Part shown: one piece after another, positions 5,801 through 40,870 of the stretch | Numbering within the stretch: the stretch's first letter is position 1 | How the letters are laid out: each line of letters begins with the position of its first letter | Source: a virus | Lineage: Duplodnaviria; Caudoviricetes | Reading direction: 5' to 3' (one strand) | IMG/VR virus record: IMGVR_UViG_3300025924_000017 | Location: 128,001 to 192,000 of that record | DNA: 64,000 nt | Made by a program: the position numbers and the translations under genes | The notes under the pieces: generated by a model | Told to the model about the DNA's origin: nothing | The model's input: only the letters and a program-made list of their open reading frames with translations | Database searches by the model: none

Positions 5801-6416
5801 CGTCATCCTCGACGAAATGCGCCGCCGGACGGTCTACATCCGCCTGAACGCGCAGATGCCCGACGCCACCACGCGTATCTTCCGCCATCCCGACATCTCA
5901 GGCATGGGCTATACGGAATTCGTCAAGAAGAATAGGCACATCGCGGTTCGCCACATCCTGACGCTGATCCAGTACTGGATCAGCATGGGCATGCCGCTCT
6001 TCAGCGAGCGTCGGCGCGCGTCGTTTGAGGACTGGTCGGCGAAGGTCGGCGGCGTTCTCCAAGCCTGCGCCGTGGAAGGCTTCATCGACAACTTCGACGT
6101 GGTCTCGTCGGACTTCGAAGATGCGGCGTCGCGTCAATTCGTGCGCGATCTCTTCCACTATAAGGGCTCGAACTTCGTCCATACACCGAACGCGTTGTTC
6201 GACTGGGCGAGCGAGAACCGCTTCGACATCATCAGCGGCAACAACGAAGATCAGAAGCGTTCGCGCTTCATGAAGAACTCGCTGCCGTCGATGCAGGACC
6301 GCACCTATCGCATTGATGGTGAAGACTTCATGTTCCAGCAGGCGATGGACAACCAGCAGAACCTCGGTTTCCAGCTTGTGAAATTGGAGCGCGAGGATGA
6401 AGCCCGCGCGGCGTAG
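2841..6416 (+). CDS. Large primase-like replication protein (primase-like N-terminus, Cys/His Zn-binding region, degenerate P-loop domain)
   Basis: Likely ATG at 2841 (MSQAAEF); GLDID and TDPSRLFY primase-like motifs; CPFDESH...CRHETC; KPQPGTGGTLL and LFFDDV Walker A/B-like motifs. Confidence 0.65.
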   Translation: MSQAAEFLNAVFSSTDAAISFDLNGQIITDAEEIDRDTIKERLSEAYVGPFTDQGVCFVHGFLDGATVDDVASCRLQPTAVLKKHGEDKLIFVWAFDAPVDDIRISLLTDALGMASPEEFIPLPGVDGWELLETTPECVYSFDVLAEVYVLDDTVVEADPNADSAFATEPETPATYGDAVCVTPYNETDHFNEITVALGPNRESKQWKPMSMPAGAFIARLCQHQVGRKDGPAFVLGDMVPGQRFKNRVKSLYGVGLDIDTGTPSSTVDTALAALQVQAVRYTTHSHLKTHTDFNKDRVIKWSEGREINDDLIREFLTTVEQWDADIVASAEYLGTDHTEKGIVCQVSHNPMPKHRVVLLFKEPFVIENEGKTQKEAMDKWAKVPEALARLLNVPFDTSCTDPSRLFYFPRHADGKPFEISVFGGPYFDWRTLELDDPMERLAATLDKGKSKSKTKEGKELGRWSLKRAHGFQIADVIEANAPDRIRHNTGHGLEIECPFDESHSNAGDPEDRACLVVNAGEGPSEWFTISCRHETCRDKTNLDMLGKMIADGWFEKDVLEDEQFNAILEEDQKPEVAVQIEKQDEAKKDYITAIEALEGDSSEETVQHAITLLLDAKLGTLEQVKAEKLLKKVLGVNSTDVQKLLKRARTDRMRDTKHEEMDGERMIFRYQGEFNFDDAFNICVKSLKATNDRAKKPVFSCIDSEPVRFMTKRNEGKESVSFEPISNRTLWSELCRYVAFVRTSDQGDGARGKVPEDVANLVFEQAYHKLPQAPEVIYTPLFLRDGTLLAADGYHFDPKRPDYKNLLLISNGLLDAMPQVPRAPSAEDVEEARDWIITELLSDFPFLDTDSQGSERREPSLANALAMLITPFMRRMINGRTPVFFVYKPQPGTGGTLLGQLPMWLFDGAAGSATRYSQNEEEMQKGLIAAVQEPRSHLFFDDVKDFNNRELLRAITQDNISGRLLGASRNISVPNRFNWVGTGNNTVILDEMRRRTVYIRLNAQMPDATTRIFRHPDISGMGYTEFVKKNRHIAVRHILTLIQYWISMGMPLFSERRRASFEDWSAKVGGVLQACAVEGFIDNFDVVSSDFEDAASRQFVRDLFHYKGSNFVHTPNALFDWASENRFDIISGNNEDQKRSRFMKNSLPSMQDRTYRIDGEDFMFQQAMDNQQNLGFQLVKLEREDEARAA

Positions 6417-6445
6417 AACTACAGTAGCATGAAAAGGAAGAGTGC

Positions 6446-6751
6446 ATGAAGAAGTCTTGGCGTACGTCCAAGCGCGCTTTGTTTGTCAAAGGCATCGCAT
6501 ATTTACTCGGAGTTTCGAGTCACGTCATCACCAAGGTCGCGCGGATGCCCGGCGATCCGCATTTCCCGGGTGAGTGTTGCCGACCGGCGGCGCACGGCGG
6601 CCCATGCAACGGCTATCCAGCGGAGACCTGCCCCGGCTACCACGCGTGGCGCGTCGGCCGCGCAGAACTCGACGCCGAGCGATCCTATTTGAAGAGGCGC
6701 TCGGACGTACCGCCACCGCCTCCACCTCTGGAGGGCAGGGGACGCCCATGA
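6446..6751 (+). CDS. Hypothetical Cys-rich protein
   Basis: 101 aa ORF, stop overlaps the next start. Confidence 0.5.
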   Translation: MKKSWRTSKRALFVKGIAYLLGVSSHVITKVARMPGDPHFPGECCRPAAHGGPCNGYPAETCPGYHAWRVGRAELDAERSYLKRRSDVPPPPPPLEGRGRP

Positions 6752-7717: not shown

Positions 7718-8176
7718 TCAGACGAGGACCCACTCGACCGTGATGCCGAGTGACTTCGCGAACTTGGTCTCTTCGATGACACCTTCGGATTCCTCCCAGT
7801 TGTGGGCCATGAGGACGCGGACTTTCTTGCATCTGCGGATCAGGGCCTCAGAGTATTCCTTCCAGAACTTCCAGTCCTTGCCGAGCCCGGGGACCTGTTG
7901 GAGTGCGTAGTGGAACCAGAGCACGCCGATGACGCGTTCACCTTTCAAGGCGAACTTCCCCATCTCGCGGCAATAGATTGCCATCCGCGCCTCGATCACT
8001 TCCGGCGACGGATCGGAGTAGGGCATCGAGACGAAGATCAAATCATCCGCCTTCGATGTTGTCTCCTCGCCGAGGATTTTCCGTATTTCGATGAGTGTGG
8101 CCTGAAGGTTGTGGCCCTTCTCACAAGCCTTGTAGCCTAACTCGGCAGCGAAGAGCGCGACTGCATTGACGCTCAT
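7718..8176 (-). CDS. DUF1937-like (nucleoside deoxyribosyltransferase-like fold) protein
   Basis: IFVSMPYS...W...SEALIRRC..VRVL...WEESEGVIEE..FA pattern. Confidence 0.6.
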   Translation of the reverse strand: MSVNAVALFAAELGYKACEKGHNLQATLIEIRKILGEETTSKADDLIFVSMPYSDPSPEVIEARMAIYCREMGKFALKGERVIGVLWFHYALQQVPGLGKDWKFWKEYSEALIRRCKKVRVLMAHNWEESEGVIEETKFAKSLGITVEWVLV

Positions 8177-8349
8177 TGAGATGCCTCACCTAGGATGTCG
8201 TTGACGACCTCCACCATGCGCGGGTCTTGCTCGGAGAATTTCCGCAGCACGCTGGTGACAACAATCGCCGCCGTTTCATCATCCAGCTTGCCGGAAGACG
8301 AGGCTTTGGCGGCGCGGATGAGGGCCTTCATGTCGTTGGTCTGCTTCAT
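8173..8349 (-). CDS. Small hypothetical protein (58 aa, not in the ORF track)
   Basis: MKQTNDMKALIRAAK...GEASQ; both ends overlap neighbours in ATGA fashion. Confidence 0.55.
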   Translation of the reverse strand: MKQTNDMKALIRAAKASSSGKLDDETAAIVVTSVLRKFSEQDPRMVEVVNDILGEASQ

Positions 8350-8618
8350 CAGCGCACCCGATGCGTCCCGTTCGCCATGAGCAGCCCTGTGAACCCATCG
8401 TCATGAATGACGTGGAACGTACGACCGATGGCGCGTTCCGAGATGCTCTTCACGTCCGAGATGTCATGCCATCCGCGCATGTTGTAGCCGCCAGCATCGT
8501 GGCTGAAGCAGTACCAGACGGTTCCGTTGATCCCGAAGACAAAGTTGTGACCGACGACCCAGTGGTCTGGATGACTCTCCGGCGTGATGTCGGGAGGAAG
8601 CGCTTCACACATCGTCAA
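8349..8618 (-). CDS. Hypothetical protein
   Basis: 89 aa ORF, translationally coupled. Confidence 0.55.
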   Translation of the reverse strand: MTMCEALPPDITPESHPDHWVVGHNFVFGINGTVWYCFSHDAGGYNMRGWHDISDVKSISERAIGRTFHVIHDDGFTGLLMANGTHRVR

Positions 8619-35367: not shown

Positions 35368-35820
35368 GTGACCCTTCCAGTTGCACAACCCTTGACGGAA
35401 ATCGATTTCGCATACATCGCTGGTATGATCGACGGTGAGGGCACTATTACGCTCACACGTACCCATCCAAACCAGTTCCGGACACCCGTGCTCAGCCTTA
35501 GTAGTACGACGCCAGAATTGCTGCTTCCCGCACAAGAAGCGTTTGGCGGGCGCGTGCAGACCAAGAAAGCGTCTAAGGCACATCATGCGATCCCTTATGA
35601 ATGGAGATTGCGTGGTCATGCGGCCTTGCGAGCAATTGAGAGGCTGTTGCCATATCTAAGGCACCCGGAAAAAGCGAGGCGCGCTAAGCTACTCCTCGGC
35701 AACTATAACCGCGTGACGGTGCGCAACGGGAAATATACCGAAAGTCAACGCCACCAACGGCTGCTGTTCGAGAGCGAATTTCTTGGAGCGCCGGTGCAAA
35801 TATGTGTTGACAAAACATAA
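35368..35820 (+). mobile_element. Free-standing single-motif LAGLIDADG homing endonuclease gene
   Basis: FAYIAGMIDGEGTI motif; 150 aa; lies between tRNA-Cys and tmRNA. Confidence 0.85.
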
Positions 35821-35835
35821 TACTGCCGTTATACA
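35807..35835 (+). promoter_or_regulatory. Sigma70-like promoter of the tmRNA
   Basis: TTGACA-17 nt-TATACA overlapping the endonuclease stop codon. Confidence 0.7.
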
Positions 35836-35841
35836 CGACAA

Positions 35842-36198
35842 CATCGTTGTAACTCGGACTTCGAGGAGCACGGACCGGACTCGGGGGCAGTACCCGACCG
35901 CTCCACCAAAACCCCACCGGGGGTCTAACGCACGAACGGATCGGATAGACCCCGGCCCGTCTGACACAGTTCGGCCGCAATGCCGGATTGGGCGTCCCGG
36001 TGAGGTTTTGATGGGGCGGAAACAGGATCGACGGACGAGCGAGGCGCAGGGACGCAACGTGGATTGATCTCCAGTCCCTAACGGGATGCTCGATCAAAAA
36101 GACAGAAATGTCGCCAATGACAATGAGCCTGAGGCTCTGCGTTTCGCTGCCTAATAGGTAAGCGCGGTTGGGGAGAACCGGGCAACAGAATCTCCCCG
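35842..36198 (+). ncRNA. ssrA: Circularly permuted (two-piece) tmRNA; outer ends approximate
   Basis: Acceptor piece ends GGGGGCAGTACCC GA CCGCTCC A CCA (35908); coding piece starts GGGGCGGAAACAGGATCGAC (36013); tag (A)ANDNEPEALRFAA at 36113-36154; GGCAACAGAA 3' motif. Confidence 0.92.
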
Positions 36199-36204
36199 CT
36201 TAAT

Positions 36205-37830
36205 TCCCGGAGACGGGATAACGACTATCTCGCCTGCGGGCGAGGGATGGCGGCAAGTTAGATTCGTGGTTGATCCACGAACAGGTGCCTAAGTCAGGCG
36301 TCCGGGAGAACGCGACAAAGGAATCTCCCGACTGCTCTTTGACAATTTGGATCGAATGACACTGACGCCTGCCTTTGGCTTTGATCGTTGCAACGTGAAA
36401 AGCTGGTGAATTGGCGGACAATGGATTTGGTAGGGACTGACGATAGCGGCGAACCGCGCATAGTGGCGTTGTAACAATAGGGACCGATCCTGATCACACT
36501 CCGGTTCAAGTCCGGTACCGGTGAGCCGAAGTCAGGCGCCAGTGTCATGAGAACCTTCATAGGCGCATCACTCCACCGTAAGGCACGCCAAGGCCGGTCG
36601 GTGCAGAAGACGAGGGCTAGGGGCCTTGGCGGGCTCCGAAACAACGGGCCGGGCTTGTAACCCGGCAGTGGGACTAAGCCCCTCCCGGGCGGCGTGGGCC
36701 GTCTAACGTTGTAGTCGTGGTGTGTCTATGAAGGTTCTGAAACAGATAGGCCGATACAAGGGCTGTAAGACCTCACGAGGCATGCAGGCGTAGCGGCTAC
36801 CATTGTGCCACGGGATAAAACGCACCGTCGTCATGACACGGGAGCGCCGGGGTGAGCCGAGCGGGGAGCAGCTTGGGAACAGAATGCTCCAAGAATTTTG
36901 GCGGTTCGACTAAGGAAGTCGGCTCGATGATAGGTAGCACCCTTCGAGACAATCCGGTGTCAACTCCGGCCCGTCAGCCCAGTCAGTGTCGCCATTGCAG
37001 ACGGCGTGACACATTCCAAAACTAAATTGTCTGCAAGGCGTGTTTCTCGAAGCGCGAGTGCGGGGAGAGATGTAGCGATGAGCACCGGAAGAAGGCCAAC
37101 TCCAATCCGGCGCGACTGCGCAAACATGCGGTTGACTCTGAGCCGATAGTTGGTCTGTTGGCTCACAGACGCAGTCGAGAAGTCAACCGGCAGACCGGCC
37201 GTTGCGTTAGGTCACGAATTCCCGAAAGGGATAGCTGCGACGTCGAAAGACGCTAATGAGCAGGAAGGCCGTAACTCCTGTGCAGCGCAAACGGTCGCGA
37301 AATTCATAGCAGGGTCAACCCGACGAAGCTGAACGCGTCAGTGGAGGGTCGAAGCTAGGGCACGAGGACGACTCAAATCGTGTCTCTCTAGGGGTCAGGT
37401 AGATAATAGACCGTGCGGTGCGGTCTCCGATCCCAGCCGTTTGAATTCTCGGGGCGCATCAGAACGTCGAGCCCCATGCGAGACTTAAAGACGTGACGTT
37501 GGGAGAGGCCCATCCAGATTTGAGTTTGAGGACTCGGCGCGACCTTCACGGGTGCAAATCCCGATGGGTCCTCATTAGAGAGCTTTGGTTCGACCAATAT
37601 CGGTGATCGACGCAGGCGCAACGCCAATAAGGCGACCTGTACTAATCCGGAATAAGCTCTCGCCAGTTTTGAGTGTCACGACCCGTATCCCTACATTGGT
37701 CAAGATCGTGACGCGATAGTCTGTGGCAACCTGTGCCCGCGAGGGTGGCGTATCCAATCGCCTTAATGGCTAGACCACTGAGCGGTGTGGGCAAAGCAGC
37801 GAGATGGTGCAAGGCCATCGACAGAATTTA
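36205..37830 (+). ncRNA. Candidate giant structured ncRNA(s), GOLLD/ROOL-like class; boundaries uncertain
   Basis: No credible ORF; 15-16 bp long-range helices, several T-loop and GNRA hairpins; tRNA-cluster context. Confidence 0.65.
37803..37828 (+). repeat. 26 nt direct repeat, copy 1 (T-loop-like hairpin)
   Basis: GATGGTGCAAGGCCATCGACAGAATT. Confidence 0.9.
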
Positions 37831-37839
37831 AGGACGTGT

Positions 37840-38130
37840 ATGGACCTCAAGACTCTTCAGGACGAAGTTAGCAAGCGCTGGGCGCGTCAGGTTGGCAACC
37901 CGTGTCACAATTCGGCGGGAGCCAATCACGCTCTCGTCCACATGATGAAGGCCCTTGGTAAGGTCGCTTCTGCACTCAACGATGCCGAACATGAAGGCCG
38001 TGGTGTGCAAGCGAACGAAGTCGAAAATTACCTCGCCGATCTGGTGATCTGCGCAGCGCGATTTTCCGATGGTGTCGTCGATCTCGGCGCTGCATGCGCT
38101 GCTCGACTTGAGGAGAAATTTCCGATCTAA
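37840..38130 (+). CDS. MazG-like nucleotide pyrophosphohydrolase fold protein
   Basis: LKTLQDEV...HALVHMMKALGKVA...EVENYLADLVI...DL......LEEKF. Confidence 0.65.
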   Translation: MDLKTLQDEVSKRWARQVGNPCHNSAGANHALVHMMKALGKVASALNDAEHEGRGVQANEVENYLADLVICAARFSDGVVDLGAACAARLEEKFPI

Positions 38131-38138
38131 TCGGACGT

Positions 38139-38164
38139 GATGGTGCAAGGCCATCGACAGAATT
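38139..38164 (+). repeat. 26 nt direct repeat, copy 2
   Basis: Identical to 37803-37828. Confidence 0.9.
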
Positions 38165-38166
38165 AA

Positions 38167-38246
38167 AGCGGGGTAGAGGAGCCCGGTCGTCCTCGCCAGC
38201 CTCATAAGCTGGAAATCGTGTGGTTCGAATCCCACCTCCGCAACCA
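38167..38246 (+). tRNA. tRNA-Met(CAT), initiator-like
   Basis: AGCGGGG/CTCCGCA with 1:72 mismatch, CCAGC-CTCATAA-GCTGG, TTCGAAT, CCA. Confidence 0.8.
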
Positions 38247-38250
38247 GTTA

Positions 38251-38323
38251 GGGAGTGTCCCGGTTCGATTCCGGGGTGGCGCGGAAGTACCGCCCATTAG
38301 GCTTAGTGGTAGAGTCTTCTCCC
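38251..38323 (+). ncRNA. Circularly permuted tRNA-like element (YrlA/Y RNA-like topology)
   Basis: Order is T arm, loop-closed acceptor stem, D arm, all closed by GGGAG/CTCCC. Confidence 0.6.
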
Positions 38324-38457
38324 GCGAAAAAAGCGGAAACGGGCGGTTCGACTCCGCTCCCTGCATTATGTCGGTGAAGCTGACCGGCAGCCGAGGGTCG
38401 CTCCCACGGTGAAACCCGCAGGTCGTCTAAAGGTCAGGACGCCGCTGGACTTATTGA

Positions 38458-38534
38458 TGTGCTTTAGCTCAGTCAGACAGAGCGCCGGATTCATATCCCG
38501 GAGGTCGCCGGGGCGGAACCGGCAAGCACTACCA
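38458..38534 (+). tRNA. tRNA with CAT anticodon (Met or Ile2) and non-canonical T loop
   Basis: GTGCTT/AAGCAC acceptor stem, GCTC/GAGC D stem, TTCATAT loop, T loop GGCGGAA, CCA. Confidence 0.7.
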
Positions 38535-38760
38535 ACACCTGTCCCAATGTAGAGTTTCATTGAAAATGCCGCTGGTTTCATAGCGGTGACTTTCGCTTTT
38601 GCTACCTCGGCCAAAGCCGAATCGCTCCATTACGGCTCCTCTGAGCCTTCGATTCGGAAGTCGCCGACACACACGCAGGCTGTTGATGGAAATCGACAAC
38701 GGTCGCCCGTGCGATTGCAGTCGGCCCGAGCGCCTTACACCTCCAGCATTGGAGGTAAGC

Positions 38761-39072
38761 ATGTCCGACATTGTCGTCAGGGCTTTGATCAAGCGCCGCG
38801 CGAAACTCGCCCACGAGATCGAGGAAACCCACGAGCGCCTGCGTCAGATGGCGCTCGATTTGGTGAACCTCGACGCGACCCTGCTCCAATTTGATCCAAA
38901 ATTGGAAATCGAGACGATCCGGCCCCGCGCCTTCCGTCCGCCGATGGATTGGGCCAAGCGTGGCGGGATGATGCGGTTAATTTACGGCGTCTTGCGCCGG
39001 GCCGTCGAACCGCTCACCAACGCCGGACCGAAGGGCGCGCCAGATCGGAGAGCACGATCAGAGGGTGTGTAG
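38761..39072 (+). pseudogene. Probably truncated homolog of a common alphaproteobacterial hypothetical protein
   Basis: ALIKRRAKLA.EIE...LD..L..FDP...FRPP.DWAKRG.M.RL...LR.A.EPLT, then the sequence degenerates. Confidence 0.45.
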
Positions 39073-40608: not shown

Positions 40609-40821
40609 ACAAAACAGCATTCGAAATCGTCCAAGACGTTGAAAGTGCGCCGTGTTCTCTGTGGCGAAACTGCGACGAAAGTGCGGTGAAATGCACGTAA
40701 AGTCGTGTATCGTGACGTAACCAAATGTAACTGACGCGATCTACGGCAAAATCACCCCGAAATGTCAGACCCTAAAAATTACCGTAAAACCTTGATTTTC
40801 CTCGATTTTATCTGAATTCAC

Positions 40822-40870
40822 TGGTCGGAGAGAGAGGATTCGAACCTCCGGCCCCCACGTCCCGAACGTG
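40822..40870 (-). other. attP core: 3' half of host tRNA-Pro(CGG)
   Basis: Minus strand CACG-TTCGGGA-CGTG GGGGCC GGAGG-TTCGAAT-CCTCT CTCTCCG ACCA, no D arm or 5' half; about 210 nt downstream of int. Confidence 0.85.

What the first reader, a model, noticed from the sequence alone, without database searches (positions are those of the whole stretch)
38251..38447. Tandem circularly permuted tRNA mimics with YrlA (Y RNA)-like topology
Seen, element 1 in 5'-3' order: GGGAG (38251-55); T arm CCCGG-TTCGATT-CCGGG; acceptor-like stem GTGGCG/CGCCCAT closed by a loop, so no CCA end; TA; D arm GGCT-TAGTGGTAG-AGTC; CTCCC (38319-23) closing the domain. A second T arm (GCGG-TTCGACT-CCGC) and a second CTCCC near 38356 give an alternative closure. 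A more degenerate copy at 38388-38447 has the same order, with D arm CGTC-TAAAGGTCAG-GACG. Established: bacterial YrlA Y RNAs carry a permuted tRNA-like domain with a capped acceptor stem and bind Ro60. No Ro60 gene and no clear GNCGAA Ro-binding motif are visible here. Inference: these are Y RNA relatives, or non-chargeable tRNA decoys for host tRNA-targeting enzymes.
Basis: partly seen in the sequence, partly recalled or inferred. Interest (0 to 1): 0.78.

Follow-up and report, generated by a model that had tools for sequence, protein, structure and literature searches.

The report
Two back-to-front tRNA look-alikes in phage
Between two tRNA genes, this large soil phage encodes two adjoining tRNA-shaped RNA units with a sealed acceptor end and no anticodon loop, built like the tRNA-mimic part of bacterial Y RNAs but without their Ro60-binding stem or a Ro60 gene. 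No relatives were found, so whether they function is unproven.

Summary
The core observation holds, and I redraw the second element.

**Structure.** It is the minimum-energy fold of its own 73 nt. The second T arm does not give an alternative closure for element 1. It belongs to module 2 (38332-38446), together with the CGTC...GACG D arm. Module 2 has its own 5-bp closure and an acceptor-like stem carrying a 53-nt insert. The two modules together have 53 base pairs in 11 helices, with no mismatch and one bulge.

**Family tests.**
- Architecture is YrlA-type, but Rfam YrlA gives no hit.
- There is no Ro-binding helix.
- The phage has no TROVE/Ro60 gene and no DUF7873 hit among the 52 ORFs tested.

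**Context.**
- The attP core points to Rhizomicrobium as host. About 10% of genomes in that genus carry tandem YrlA-like RNAs followed by rsr, with rtcB next in the one locus checked.
- The phage itself encodes RtcB and RlaP.

**Limits.**
- No homologue of this spacer exists in any collection searched, so covariation cannot be tested.
- The fold of the whole 211-nt spacer does not reproduce the modules.

**Verdict.** This is most likely a handle-less variant of tRNA-mimic RNAs, cut out by tRNA processing. A relic of tRNA duplications remains possible. Earlier notes from this scan describe similar tandem mimics on other DNA.

The parts
38167..38246 (+). Flanking tRNA-Met(CAU), 80 nt, with an A1/A72 mismatch and an encoded CCA. 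Its 3' end lies 4 nt before module 1.
   Evidence: ARAGORN; Rfam tRNA 45.4 bits.
38251..38323 (+). Module 1, a permuted tRNA body resembling tRNA-Gly. Closure 38251-55 / 38319-23; UGU; T arm 38259-75; capped stem 38276-97 (bulged C at 38280, loop AAGUA); U; D arm 38299-38317; U.
   Evidence: Sequence. It is the MFE of the segment alone (frequency 0.49). R1 scores it 25.2 bits. The Gly assignment is my recollection of tRNA-Gly(GCC) sequences and was not tested.
38324..38331 (+). 8-nt linker GCGAAAAA between the modules. Together with its flanks it can form the hairpin CCGC-GAAAAAA-GCGG (38321-38336), which competes with both closures.
   Evidence: fold of 38247-38365.
38332..38446 (+). Module 2, a permuted tRNA-Glu-like body. 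Closure 38332-36 / 38442-46; AAAC; T arm 38341-59; acceptor-like stem 38360-64 / 38418-22; UC; D arm 38424-41.
   Evidence: It is the MFE of 38324-38457. All pairs were checked. R1 scores it 32.9 bits. The D arm is identical to phage tRNA-Glu D arms.
38365..38417 (+). 53-nt insert capping the acceptor-like stem of module 2. It has hairpins at 38369-89 (which contains GGUGAAG) and 38390-38410.
   Evidence: Fold of the insert alone: frequency 0.52.
38458..38534 (+). Flanking tRNA(CAU) number 2. It has an odd T loop (GGCGGAA), no GG in the D loop, a U1/U72 mismatch and an encoded CCA. Its RNase P site would set the 3' end of the spacer RNA.
   Evidence: Rfam tRNA 43.7 bits. ARAGORN does not call it.
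38567..38588 (+). Terminator-like hairpin followed by a T-rich tail, closing the transcription unit. No promoter-like site lies in 37400-38900.

Best explanation
The 211-nt spacer between the two tRNA(CAU) genes encodes a small structured RNA made of two abutting, circularly permuted tRNA bodies. One resembles tRNA-Gly and the other tRNA-Glu.

Each body keeps the T arm, the D arm, the elbow nucleotides and the anticodon stem. The acceptor end is sealed by a loop (module 1) or by a two-hairpin insert (module 2). The anticodon loop is missing, so the RNA ends sit where the loop would be.

Shown: the sequence, the pairings and the context.

Inferred:
- The spacer is transcribed with the flanking tRNAs.
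- It is released when RNase P and the 3' tRNA-processing enzymes cut those tRNAs out.
- The product acts as a non-chargeable, non-decoding tRNA-body mimic. It would resemble the effector domain of YrlA, without the Ro60-binding handle.
- It engages a protein that recognises the tRNA elbow or body. The most likely setting is the tRNA damage and repair conflict, since the phage carries RtcB and RlaP and the likely host genus has YrlA-rsr-rtcB operons.
For: **Structure**
- There are 53 base pairs in 11 helices, with no mismatch and one bulge.
- Each module is the MFE of its own segment.
- Both T loops are canonical (UUCGAUU, UUCGACU). Both D loops have A14, G18, G19 and A21.
- Both closures are 5/5 Watson-Crick, against 1.1% for unrelated halves.

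**Not ordinary tRNAs, and not a recent copy**
- Joining the 5' half of module 1 to the 3' half of module 2 gives no pairing. No tRNA is called in the spacer.
- The halves are not recent copies of the phage's own tRNAs. Best local alignment scores are 9-15 (match +1, mismatch -1) for halves of 28-34 nt. Intact stems therefore argue against decay.

**The same design is real elsewhere**
- My set of 25 cores shows compensatory changes in all 7 acceptor-stem pairs (the set was chosen for pairing).
- Such cores sit next to TROVE genes.
- One sits in Sinorhizobium phage phiM12, which has no Pfam TROVE hit; its element has z -5.8.
- They occur in tandem upstream of rsr in the putative host genus; rtcB follows rsr in the one locus checked.

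**Transcription unit**
- No promoter-like site lies in 37400-38900, and a terminator-like site follows the second tRNA.

**Phage repair genes**
- RtcB (435 bits) and RlaP (218 bits) are present.
Against: - No homologue of this spacer was found in phage records, IMG/VR, JGI metagenomes, GTDB genomes or 229 Rhizomicrobium genomes. There is therefore no covariation evidence for this locus.
- The nearest relatives found carry an unrelated sequence in the same spacer.
- Rfam YrlA does not hit.
- My model R1 scores ordinary tRNA-tRNA junctions higher, at 31-48 bits.
- The MFE of the whole spacer is another fold, 7.9 kcal/mol better. In the ensemble, the closures have pair probability near 0.
- Module 1 departs from strict tRNA geometry: a 3-nt variable region, a bulged C and an extra nucleotide before the D stem.
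- No partner protein gene is adjacent. Both neighbouring genes have no Pfam hit.
- There are no expression data.
Confidence: 0.5

Rival explanations
1. The modules are a non-functional relic. Two tandem duplications of tRNA genes (one Gly-like, one Glu-like) each lost the outer halves. What remains is a 3' half followed by a cognate 5' half, and these pair automatically because they come from the same tRNA species. The spacer is discarded during tRNA processing.
For: - The central part of any tandem duplicate of one tRNA is by construction a permuted tRNA. The one real junction with a 5/5 closure is between two paralogous tRNA-Gln genes.
- The phage does carry duplicated tRNA fragments: the tRNA-Pro 3' end is repeated at genome 95915 and 95961.
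- The RNA island changes fast, and relatives hold other sequence in the same spacer.
- No homologue was found, and Rfam YrlA gives no hit.
Against: - It needs four deletions, each ending precisely at an anticodon loop.
- All 53 pairs and both T loops are intact, although no source tRNA is recognisable in the phage.
- Module 2's acceptor stem carries a structured 53-nt insert in place of a discriminator-CCA-spacer.
- The same design is a conserved RNA in many other phages and bacteria.
Confidence: 0.27
2. It is a true Y RNA. The modules bind the host's Ro60 (Rsr) and redirect or block the host's Rsr / PNPase / RtcB RNA-quality-control machinery during infection.
For: - Ten of 101 sampled genomes of the putative host genus carry a TROVE gene.
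- In the loci checked, 2-3 tandem YrlA-like modules lie upstream of it. In one locus, rtcB lies downstream.
- All six host YrlA leaders that I read contain GGUGAAG. The same 7-mer occurs at 38373-79 in module 2's insert. I estimate about a 1% chance of that in 211 nt; the comparison was made after the fact.
- The phage's RtcB is 55% identical to the host RtcB encoded next to rsr.
Against: - No helix extends from either closure, and that is where every YrlA carries the Ro site. Module 1 starts 4 nt after a tRNA.
- The GGUGAAG sits half in a hairpin loop, not in a bulged helix.
- RF02553 gives no hit here, while the host's RNAs score 28-46 bits.
- About 90% of the sampled genomes of the genus lack a TROVE hit.
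Confidence: 0.13
3. They are permuted tRNA genes that mature into working tRNAs. The ends would be joined, for example by the phage's RtcB, to make an anticodon loop, and the acceptor cap would be opened by RNase P and RNase Z. This is how permuted tRNA genes mature in the red alga Cyanidioschyzon merolae (my recollection of Soma et al. 2007; I did not read it here).
For: - The phage encodes RtcB.
- M. smegmatis YrlA is cut by RNase P in its acceptor cap and receives CCA (PMC4201824).
Against: - No combination of the flanking nucleotides (GUUA upstream, GCGAAAAA downstream) gives a 7-nt loop with U33.
- Module 1's acceptor stem has a bulge. In the 7-bp register it has three mismatches.
- Module 2's acceptor stem has only 5 bp.
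- The phage already has tRNA-Gly and tRNA-Glu genes.
Confidence: 0.03

Closest known systems
YrlA, the tRNA-like Y RNA of bacteria and mycobacteriophages (Rfam RF02553; Chen et al. 2014, PMC4201824; Wang et al. 2018, bioRxiv 10.1101/312249)
   Same: - The same permuted order: closure, variable region, T arm, loop-capped acceptor-like stem, two-nucleotide linker, D arm, closure.
- Canonical T and D loops.
- No anticodon loop and no CCA end.
- Often found in tandem (YrlA with YrlB).
   Different: - No long stem with the GNCGAA Ro60 site.
- No adjacent or genome-encoded Ro60.
- No RF02553 hit (family threshold 69 bits).
- Embedded between tRNA genes, so its ends would be made by tRNA processing.
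- Module 2's acceptor cap is a 53-nt insert.
Tandem YrlA-like RNAs of the yrlA-rsr-rtcB loci in Rhizomicrobium, the putative host genus (loci L169, L171-L174)
   Same: - Two or three tRNA-like modules in a row.
- Linked to RtcB, which the phage also encodes (55% identity).
   Different: - Each host RNA has a bulged helix (GCCGGUGGUGAAGAG paired with GUUCCCCGGC) and an AUACUUCG motif ahead of the tRNA-like domain.
- The host RNAs score 28-46 bits with RF02553.
- The phage modules have neither feature.
Phage Y-like RNAs with an outer stem and an ACAGCAA-type 'handle'. Examples: the unannotated element of Sinorhizobium phage phiM12 at NC_027204 96467-96622; IMG/VR loci L206, L213, L261, L264, L270.
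   Same: - A Glu-type permuted module whose D arm (UCGUCUAAAGGUyAGGACG) and AAAC variable region are nearly identical to those of module 2.
- Placed in or beside phage tRNA clusters.
- Often found in pairs.
   Different: - Each of those modules sits in its own RNA, closed by a long terminal stem (19 bp in phiM12) with a conserved single-stranded handle.
- The window's modules abut each other with only 5-bp closures, and have no outer stem or handle.
Two-piece (permuted) tmRNA of Alphaproteobacteria, present in this same window at 35803-36200 (Rfam RF01849 and RF04321)
   Same: Gene order in which the T arm and the 3' acceptor strand precede the 5' acceptor strand.
   Different: In tmRNA the acceptor is opened and charged with alanine, and the RNA carries a tag reading frame and pseudoknots. 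Only the T arm of module 1 matches the model (11.4 bits).
RAGATH-36 RNA (Rfam RF03104)
   Same: This is the best Rfam hit to module 1. Its consensus starts with a T-arm-like hairpin, an adjacent hairpin and GCUUAGU.
   Different: The score is 20.6 bits against a threshold of 70, and the rest of the model is not matched. The held paper library has no text on this family.

Membership tests
YrlA (RF02553) | tRNA-like domain in the order T arm, capped acceptor-like stem, D arm, closed by an anticodon-stem-like helix. | tested here: met
   R1 model scores: 25.2 and 32.9 bits.
YrlA (RF02553) | Score at or above Rfam's gathering threshold of 69 bits. | tested here: not met
   No hit at E <= 10 in a 501-nt search or in the genome search. 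The true YrlA-like RNAs next to TROVE genes that I found also score only 28-46 bits.
YrlA (RF02553) | Long stem formed by the 5' and 3' ends, carrying the Ro60 site GNCGAAN0-1G on its 5' strand. | tested here: not met
   Module 1 begins 4 nt after tRNA-Met, and the modules are 8 nt apart. No extended helix forms. The only related motif is GGUGAAG at 38373-79, inside a hairpin of the insert.
YrlA (RF02553) | Encoded next to a Ro60 / TROVE gene. | tested here: not met
   No TROVE hit at E <= 1 in the 225.6-kb phage. tblastn with 6 TROVE-protein queries (3 from phage loci, 3 from host loci) found nothing below E 0.1.
YrlA (RF02553) | Binds Ro60 and carries tRNA modifications (dihydrouridine, pseudouridine). 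| not testable with these tools
   Needs immunoprecipitation and modification mapping.
Double tRNA-mimic RNA next to DUF7873 (known only from this scan's earlier notes) | Lies directly beside a gene for a DUF7873 protein of about 245 aa. | tested here: not met
   Both neighbouring genes have no Pfam hit. None of the 52 phage ORFs of 205-335 aa matches DUF7873; only 15 families were hit and all are listed.
Double tRNA-mimic RNA next to DUF7873 (known only from this scan's earlier notes) | One RNA of about 330-400 nt with two permuted tRNA-like heads, alignable to the family. | not tested
   Two heads are present, but within 196 nt. I had no member sequence to align against.
Handle-type phage Y-like RNA | Terminal stem plus a conserved ACAGCAA-like single-stranded handle 5' of the module. 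| tested here: not met
   Read directly from 38247-38457 and compared with L206, L213, L261 and L270 and with phiM12.
tRNA (RF00005) | Linear cloverleaf with an anticodon loop and an open acceptor end. | tested here: not met
   No hit in 38247-38457 with ARAGORN or with Rfam at E <= 10.
Permuted tRNA gene that matures into a tRNA | Flanks that can be joined into a 7-nt anticodon loop, and a 7-bp acceptor stem that can be opened. | tested here: not met
   No loop with U33 can be made from the flanks. The acceptor stems are 8 bp with a bulge, and 5 bp.
RAGATH-36 (RF03104) | Score at or above 70 bits. | tested here: not met
   20.6 bits, E 0.053.

The most novel reading that the evidence does not exclude
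The handle-less modules are mimics of broken tRNAs. Each is a tRNA body whose only free ends lie at the top of the anticodon stem, exactly where an anticodon nuclease leaves them. On this reading they work without Ro60. They could act as substrates or scaffolds for the phage's RtcB and RlaP. Alternatively they could act as decoys that occupy host sensors or nucleases that recognise cleaved or intact tRNA bodies. That would define a new, minimal class of phage tRNA-mimic RNA produced by the tRNA-processing machinery itself.
Probability: 0.12. Interest if true: 0.8.

Novelty: new variant of a known kind. Interest (0 to 1): 0.5.

Why it matters
If the two modules are functional, they show that a phage can carry the tRNA-mimic 'effector' part of a Y RNA without the Ro60-binding part and without Ro60. 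The RNA would be cut out of a tRNA operon by the host's own tRNA-processing enzymes.

That would separate tRNA mimicry from Ro60 biology. It would also point to another partner, plausibly in the tRNA-cleavage and repair arms race, since this phage also carries RtcB, RlaP, PTH2, a tmRNA and about 30 tRNAs.

The redrawn structure and the putative host (Rhizomicrobium, in which some genomes carry yrlA-rsr loci, with rtcB next in the one locus checked) give concrete experiments. If the spacer turns out to be a relic, it would illustrate how permuted tRNA-like RNAs can arise from tandem tRNA duplicates.

Tried and rejected
- **Close relatives through neighbouring proteins.** The MazG-like gene and the integrase gave no relatives in IMG/VR. 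The PolA search found relatives (L046-L050), but their RNA islands lack the modules.
- **BLAST and pattern searches.**
  - BLAST of the spacer against phage records found only T-arm or D-arm sized matches.
  - IMG/VR was searched with three patterns.
  - JGI metagenomes gave one hit, an ordinary tRNA-Phe / tRNA-Gly pair.
  - GTDB genomes gave none.
- **BLAST in 229 Rhizomicrobium genomes.**
  - The 42-nt matches to the insert lie inside a protein-coding gene and are spurious.
  - The 23-24-nt matches checked (loci L295 and L301) are the T arm of the host's tRNA-Cys.
- **The tRNA-Glu-type D arm as a marker.** Twenty-three of the 25 IMG/VR hits are ordinary phage tRNA-Glu genes.
- **Rfam.** There was no YrlA, Y RNA or tRNA hit in the spacer.
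- **Thermodynamics of the whole spacer.** The MFE differs from the two-module fold and z is only -1.99. I do not use it as support.
- **DUF7873.** The family name was not accepted as a query. I tested for it indirectly by scanning ORFs against Pfam.
- **Reading the region as ordinary tRNAs or as tRNA dimers.** Rejected, because the halves pair only in the permuted sense.
- **Maturation into working tRNAs.** Rejected, because no anticodon loop can be made from the flanks.

Full report
**Where the finding lies.** The window is bases 128001-192000 of a 225,611-base virus record that CheckV rates as complete. The phage has 28 ARAGORN-called tRNA genes at 93-102 kb. Three further RNA genes lie in an RNA island inside the window: tRNA-Cys, a two-piece alpha-type tmRNA, and tRNA-Met(CAU) at 38167-38246. 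Rfam adds a second tRNA(CAU) at 38458-38531. The finding is the 211-nt spacer between these two tRNA(CAU) genes. No promoter-like site lies in 37400-38900, and a terminator-like hairpin sits at 38567-38588. The two tRNAs and the spacer therefore look like one transcription unit.

**Checking the observation.** Element 1 is there base for base. GGGAG (38251-55) and CTCCC (38319-23) enclose these features:
- T arm CCCGG-TTCGATT-CCGGG.
- A loop-capped stem GUGG(C)GCGG-AAGUA-CCGCCCAU, which is 8 bp with one bulged C.
- A D arm whose best fold is a 6-bp stem with the canonical 7-nt loop AGUGGUA.

Folded alone, the 73 nt give exactly this four-way junction as the minimum-energy structure. Its ensemble frequency is 0.49 and z is -2.0.

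**Redrawing the second element.** The fold of 38324-38457 pairs AGCGG (38332-36) with CCGCU (38442-46). Inside that closure lie, in order:
- AAAC.
- The 'second T arm' GGGCGG-UUCGACU-CCGCUC.
- A 5-bp acceptor-like stem CCUGC / GCAGG, which holds a 53-nt insert with two hairpins.
- UC.
- The D arm GUCU-AAAGGUCA-GGAC.

I checked every pair. There are 53 base pairs in 11 helices, with no mismatch and one bulge.

**Chance, or ordinary tRNA genes?**
- The spacer holds no tRNA by ARAGORN or by Rfam at E <= 10.
- Joining the 5' half of module 1 to the 3' half of module 2, as in a normal gene, gives no anticodon-stem or acceptor pairing. Only the permuted pairing works.
- As a null, I took the 30 tRNAs that ARAGORN calls in the phage and paired the 3' anticodon-stem strand of each with the 5' strand of every other. 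Five Watson-Crick pairs occur in 10 of 870 cases (1.1%). They occur at 1 of 16 real tRNA-tRNA junctions, the one between two tRNA-Gln paralogues. Both modules have 5/5.
- The halves of each module are therefore cognate. Either they are kept complementary by selection, or they descend from tandem copies of one tRNA species.
- They are not recent copies of the phage's own tRNAs. Best local alignment scores are 9-15 (match +1, mismatch -1) for halves of 28-34 nt.
- Module 1's T arm and the next five bases match the tRNA-Cys of the putative host in 23 of 24 positions. Its 5' half does not match.

**Caveats on structure.**
- The MFE of the whole 211 nt is a different, long-range fold at -87.6 kcal/mol. 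The two-module fold is at -79.7 kcal/mol, and the closures have almost no weight in the computed ensemble.
- I treat thermodynamics of the whole spacer as neutral. Each module is the best fold of its own segment, and module 1 would fold first during transcription. That is an argument, not a result.
- Module 1 also departs from strict tRNA geometry. A parser that fitted 28 of the 31 YrlA-type cores I tested rejected it, because of the bulge and one extra base before the D stem.

**Comparison with Y RNAs.** The RF02553 consensus has the same order as both modules: closure, uGUu, T arm, capped stem, UA, D arm, closure. Chen et al. 2014 describe the same design (PMC4201824). They also warn that tRNA dimers can score as false positives.

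RF02553 nevertheless gives no hit to the spacer. In the same genome it scores tRNA-tRNA junctions of the main array at 11.5-32 bits.

I built my own model, R1, from 25 cores. They came from these sources:
- Pattern searches of IMG/VR.
- Sinorhizobium phages phiM12 and phiN3.
- Ro60 loci of the putative host genus.

R1 gives module 1 a score of 25.2 bits and module 2 a score of 32.9 bits. Ordinary junctions score 31-48 bits. Such models show the T arm / hairpin / D arm arrangement but cannot separate mimics from dimers. What separates them is the absence of full tRNAs and the cognate closures.

In the 25-core set, all seven acceptor-like pairs show changes on both sides. I chose those sequences for pairing, so this shows that the design exists as a family. 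It does not show that the window's copy is functional.

**Features of other Y-like RNAs that are missing here.**
- The cores next to TROVE genes (L034, L040, L203) and the host RNAs have a long bulged helix formed by the RNA's two ends.
- Many IMG/VR examples, and the unannotated phiM12 element, have a terminal stem and an ACAGCAA-like handle. The phiM12 stem is 19 bp and its fold has z -5.8.
- The window's modules have neither. Module 1 starts 4 nt after the CCA of tRNA-Met, the modules are 8 nt apart, and only 11 nt separate module 2 from the next tRNA.
- The phage has no TROVE gene.
- Earlier notes of this scan describe a 'double tRNA-mimic RNA' next to a DUF7873 protein. Here the two neighbouring genes have no Pfam hit, and none of 52 phage ORFs of 205-335 aa matches DUF7873.

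**Host and context.** The 45-nt attP core matches the tRNA-Pro(CGG) of 86 species genomes exactly, and most of them are labelled Rhizomicrobium.
- Ten of 101 sampled genomes of that genus have a TROVE gene.
- In the five loci I scanned, each has two or three tandem YrlA-like RNAs upstream of it, scoring 28-46 bits. In the one locus checked, rtcB follows it.
- The leaders of those host RNAs share GGUGGUGAAGAG and AUACUUCG. The 7-mer GGUGAAG also occurs at 38373-79 in module 2's insert, but half in a hairpin loop. I count that as a weak, after-the-fact lead.
- The phage itself encodes a full-length RtcB that is 55% identical to that host RtcB. It also encodes RlaP and PTH2.
- RlaP and RtcB are described as RNA-repair enzymes of jumbo phages (PMC7824862).

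**Relatives.** Searches with the neighbouring proteins found nothing. Relatives found through PolA (56-75% identity) include phiCbK-like phages of about 221-224 kb. These keep the tRNA-Met ... tRNA(CAU) pair but hold an unrelated two-part sequence in the spacer. No search found a homologue of this spacer.

**Verdict.** The anatomy is real and cleaner than first described: two abutting permuted, anticodon-less tRNA bodies. I put about 0.5 on a functional tRNA-body mimic released by tRNA processing and acting without a Ro handle. I put about 0.27 on a relic of tandem tRNA duplications, about 0.13 on a true Ro60-binding Y RNA, and very little on maturation into working tRNAs. By Rfam score, Ro site and gene context it is not a member of the YrlA family. 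By architecture it works like YrlA's tRNA-like domain. Earlier notes from this scan describe many permuted tRNA mimics on other DNA. This one differs in lacking every partner and handle seen there.

Noticed in passing
window 38458-38534: The second tRNA(CAU) has a non-canonical T loop (GGCGGAA), a D loop without GG, a U1/U72 mismatch, an A31/C39 mismatch in an otherwise G-C-rich anticodon stem, and an encoded CCA. ARAGORN misses it; Rfam tRNA gives 43.7 bits.
   Followed up: partly
window 38167-38246: tRNA-Met(CAU) has an A1/A72 mismatch and ends ACCA, as bacterial initiator tRNAs do. It lacks the three G-C pairs of an initiator anticodon stem. It is about 83% identical to tRNA-Met of Caulobacter phage BL57 and Sinorhizobium phage NV1.1.1.
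   Followed up: no
genome 211068-212237 (L304), 7793-8587 (L082), 6264-6686 (L070): Outside the window, the phage encodes a full-length RtcB RNA ligase (435 bits), an RlaP nucleotidyltransferase (218 bits) and a PTH2 peptidyl-tRNA hydrolase. Together they form an RNA-repair and translation-rescue set. No Rnl-type ligase was found with PF09414.
   Followed up: partly
window 40806-40864 (- strand); loci L083-L162: The attP core, a 45-nt 3' part of tRNA-Pro(CGG), matches 86 GTDB species genomes exactly. Most are labelled Rhizomicrobium, which points to the host genus of this uncultured phage.
   Followed up: yes
L171, L172, L173, L174, L169 (Rhizomicrobium genomes): Ro60 loci of this genus carry two or three tandem YrlA-like RNAs upstream of rsr. 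rtcB lies downstream of rsr in the one locus checked (L173). The RNAs share the leader motifs GGUGGUGAAGAG and AUACUUCG. All score below Rfam's YrlA threshold (28-46 bits against 69).
   Followed up: partly
L003:1405-1562 (Sinorhizobium phage phiM12, NC_027204 96467-96622); also phiN3 (L028): An unannotated 158-nt RNA lies after tRNA-Cys. It has a 19-bp terminal stem, a small hairpin and a Glu-type permuted tRNA module (z -5.8). phiM12 has no TROVE hit. phiN3 differs by changes that keep the pairing.
   Followed up: partly
L002:3082-3349 (Caulobacter phage BL57); L047:3673-3915: In phiCbK-like relatives, the same tRNA-Met / tRNA(CAU) spacer holds an unrelated sequence of about 250 nt. It contains two repeated GGCGUGACA...GGAGAGAACGGGCAC-like units, which suggests another structured RNA.
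   Followed up: no
genome 96131-96215, about 101250-101340, and 95915 / 95961: The main tRNA array holds three features of note:
- A tRNA-Pro(GGG)-like gene with an odd T loop (GGCAGUG), missed by ARAGORN.
- A type II tRNA-Tyr(GUA)-like gene, also missed.
- A 46-nt direct duplication of the 3' end of tRNA-Pro(CGG).
   Followed up: partly
window 38321-38336: The hairpin CCGC-GAAAAAA-GCGG bridges the two modules. It uses bases of both closures, so it cannot form together with either closure.
   Followed up: no
window 37804-37830 and 38138-38164: A near-identical repeat of about 27 nt (GATGGTGCAAGGCCATCGACAGAATT) lies before the 96-aa gene at 37840-38130 and again just before tRNA-Met. That gene has no Pfam hit.
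   Followed up: no
L036:1-700 (- strand): An IMG/VR contig of 208 kb carries a series of Y-like RNAs. Each has the handle UUCAGCAAAUUAU and a terminal stem, and two of them have permuted tRNA modules. One acceptor cap contains UCCA. A skipping-rope RNA lies 2.6 kb away.
   Followed up: no
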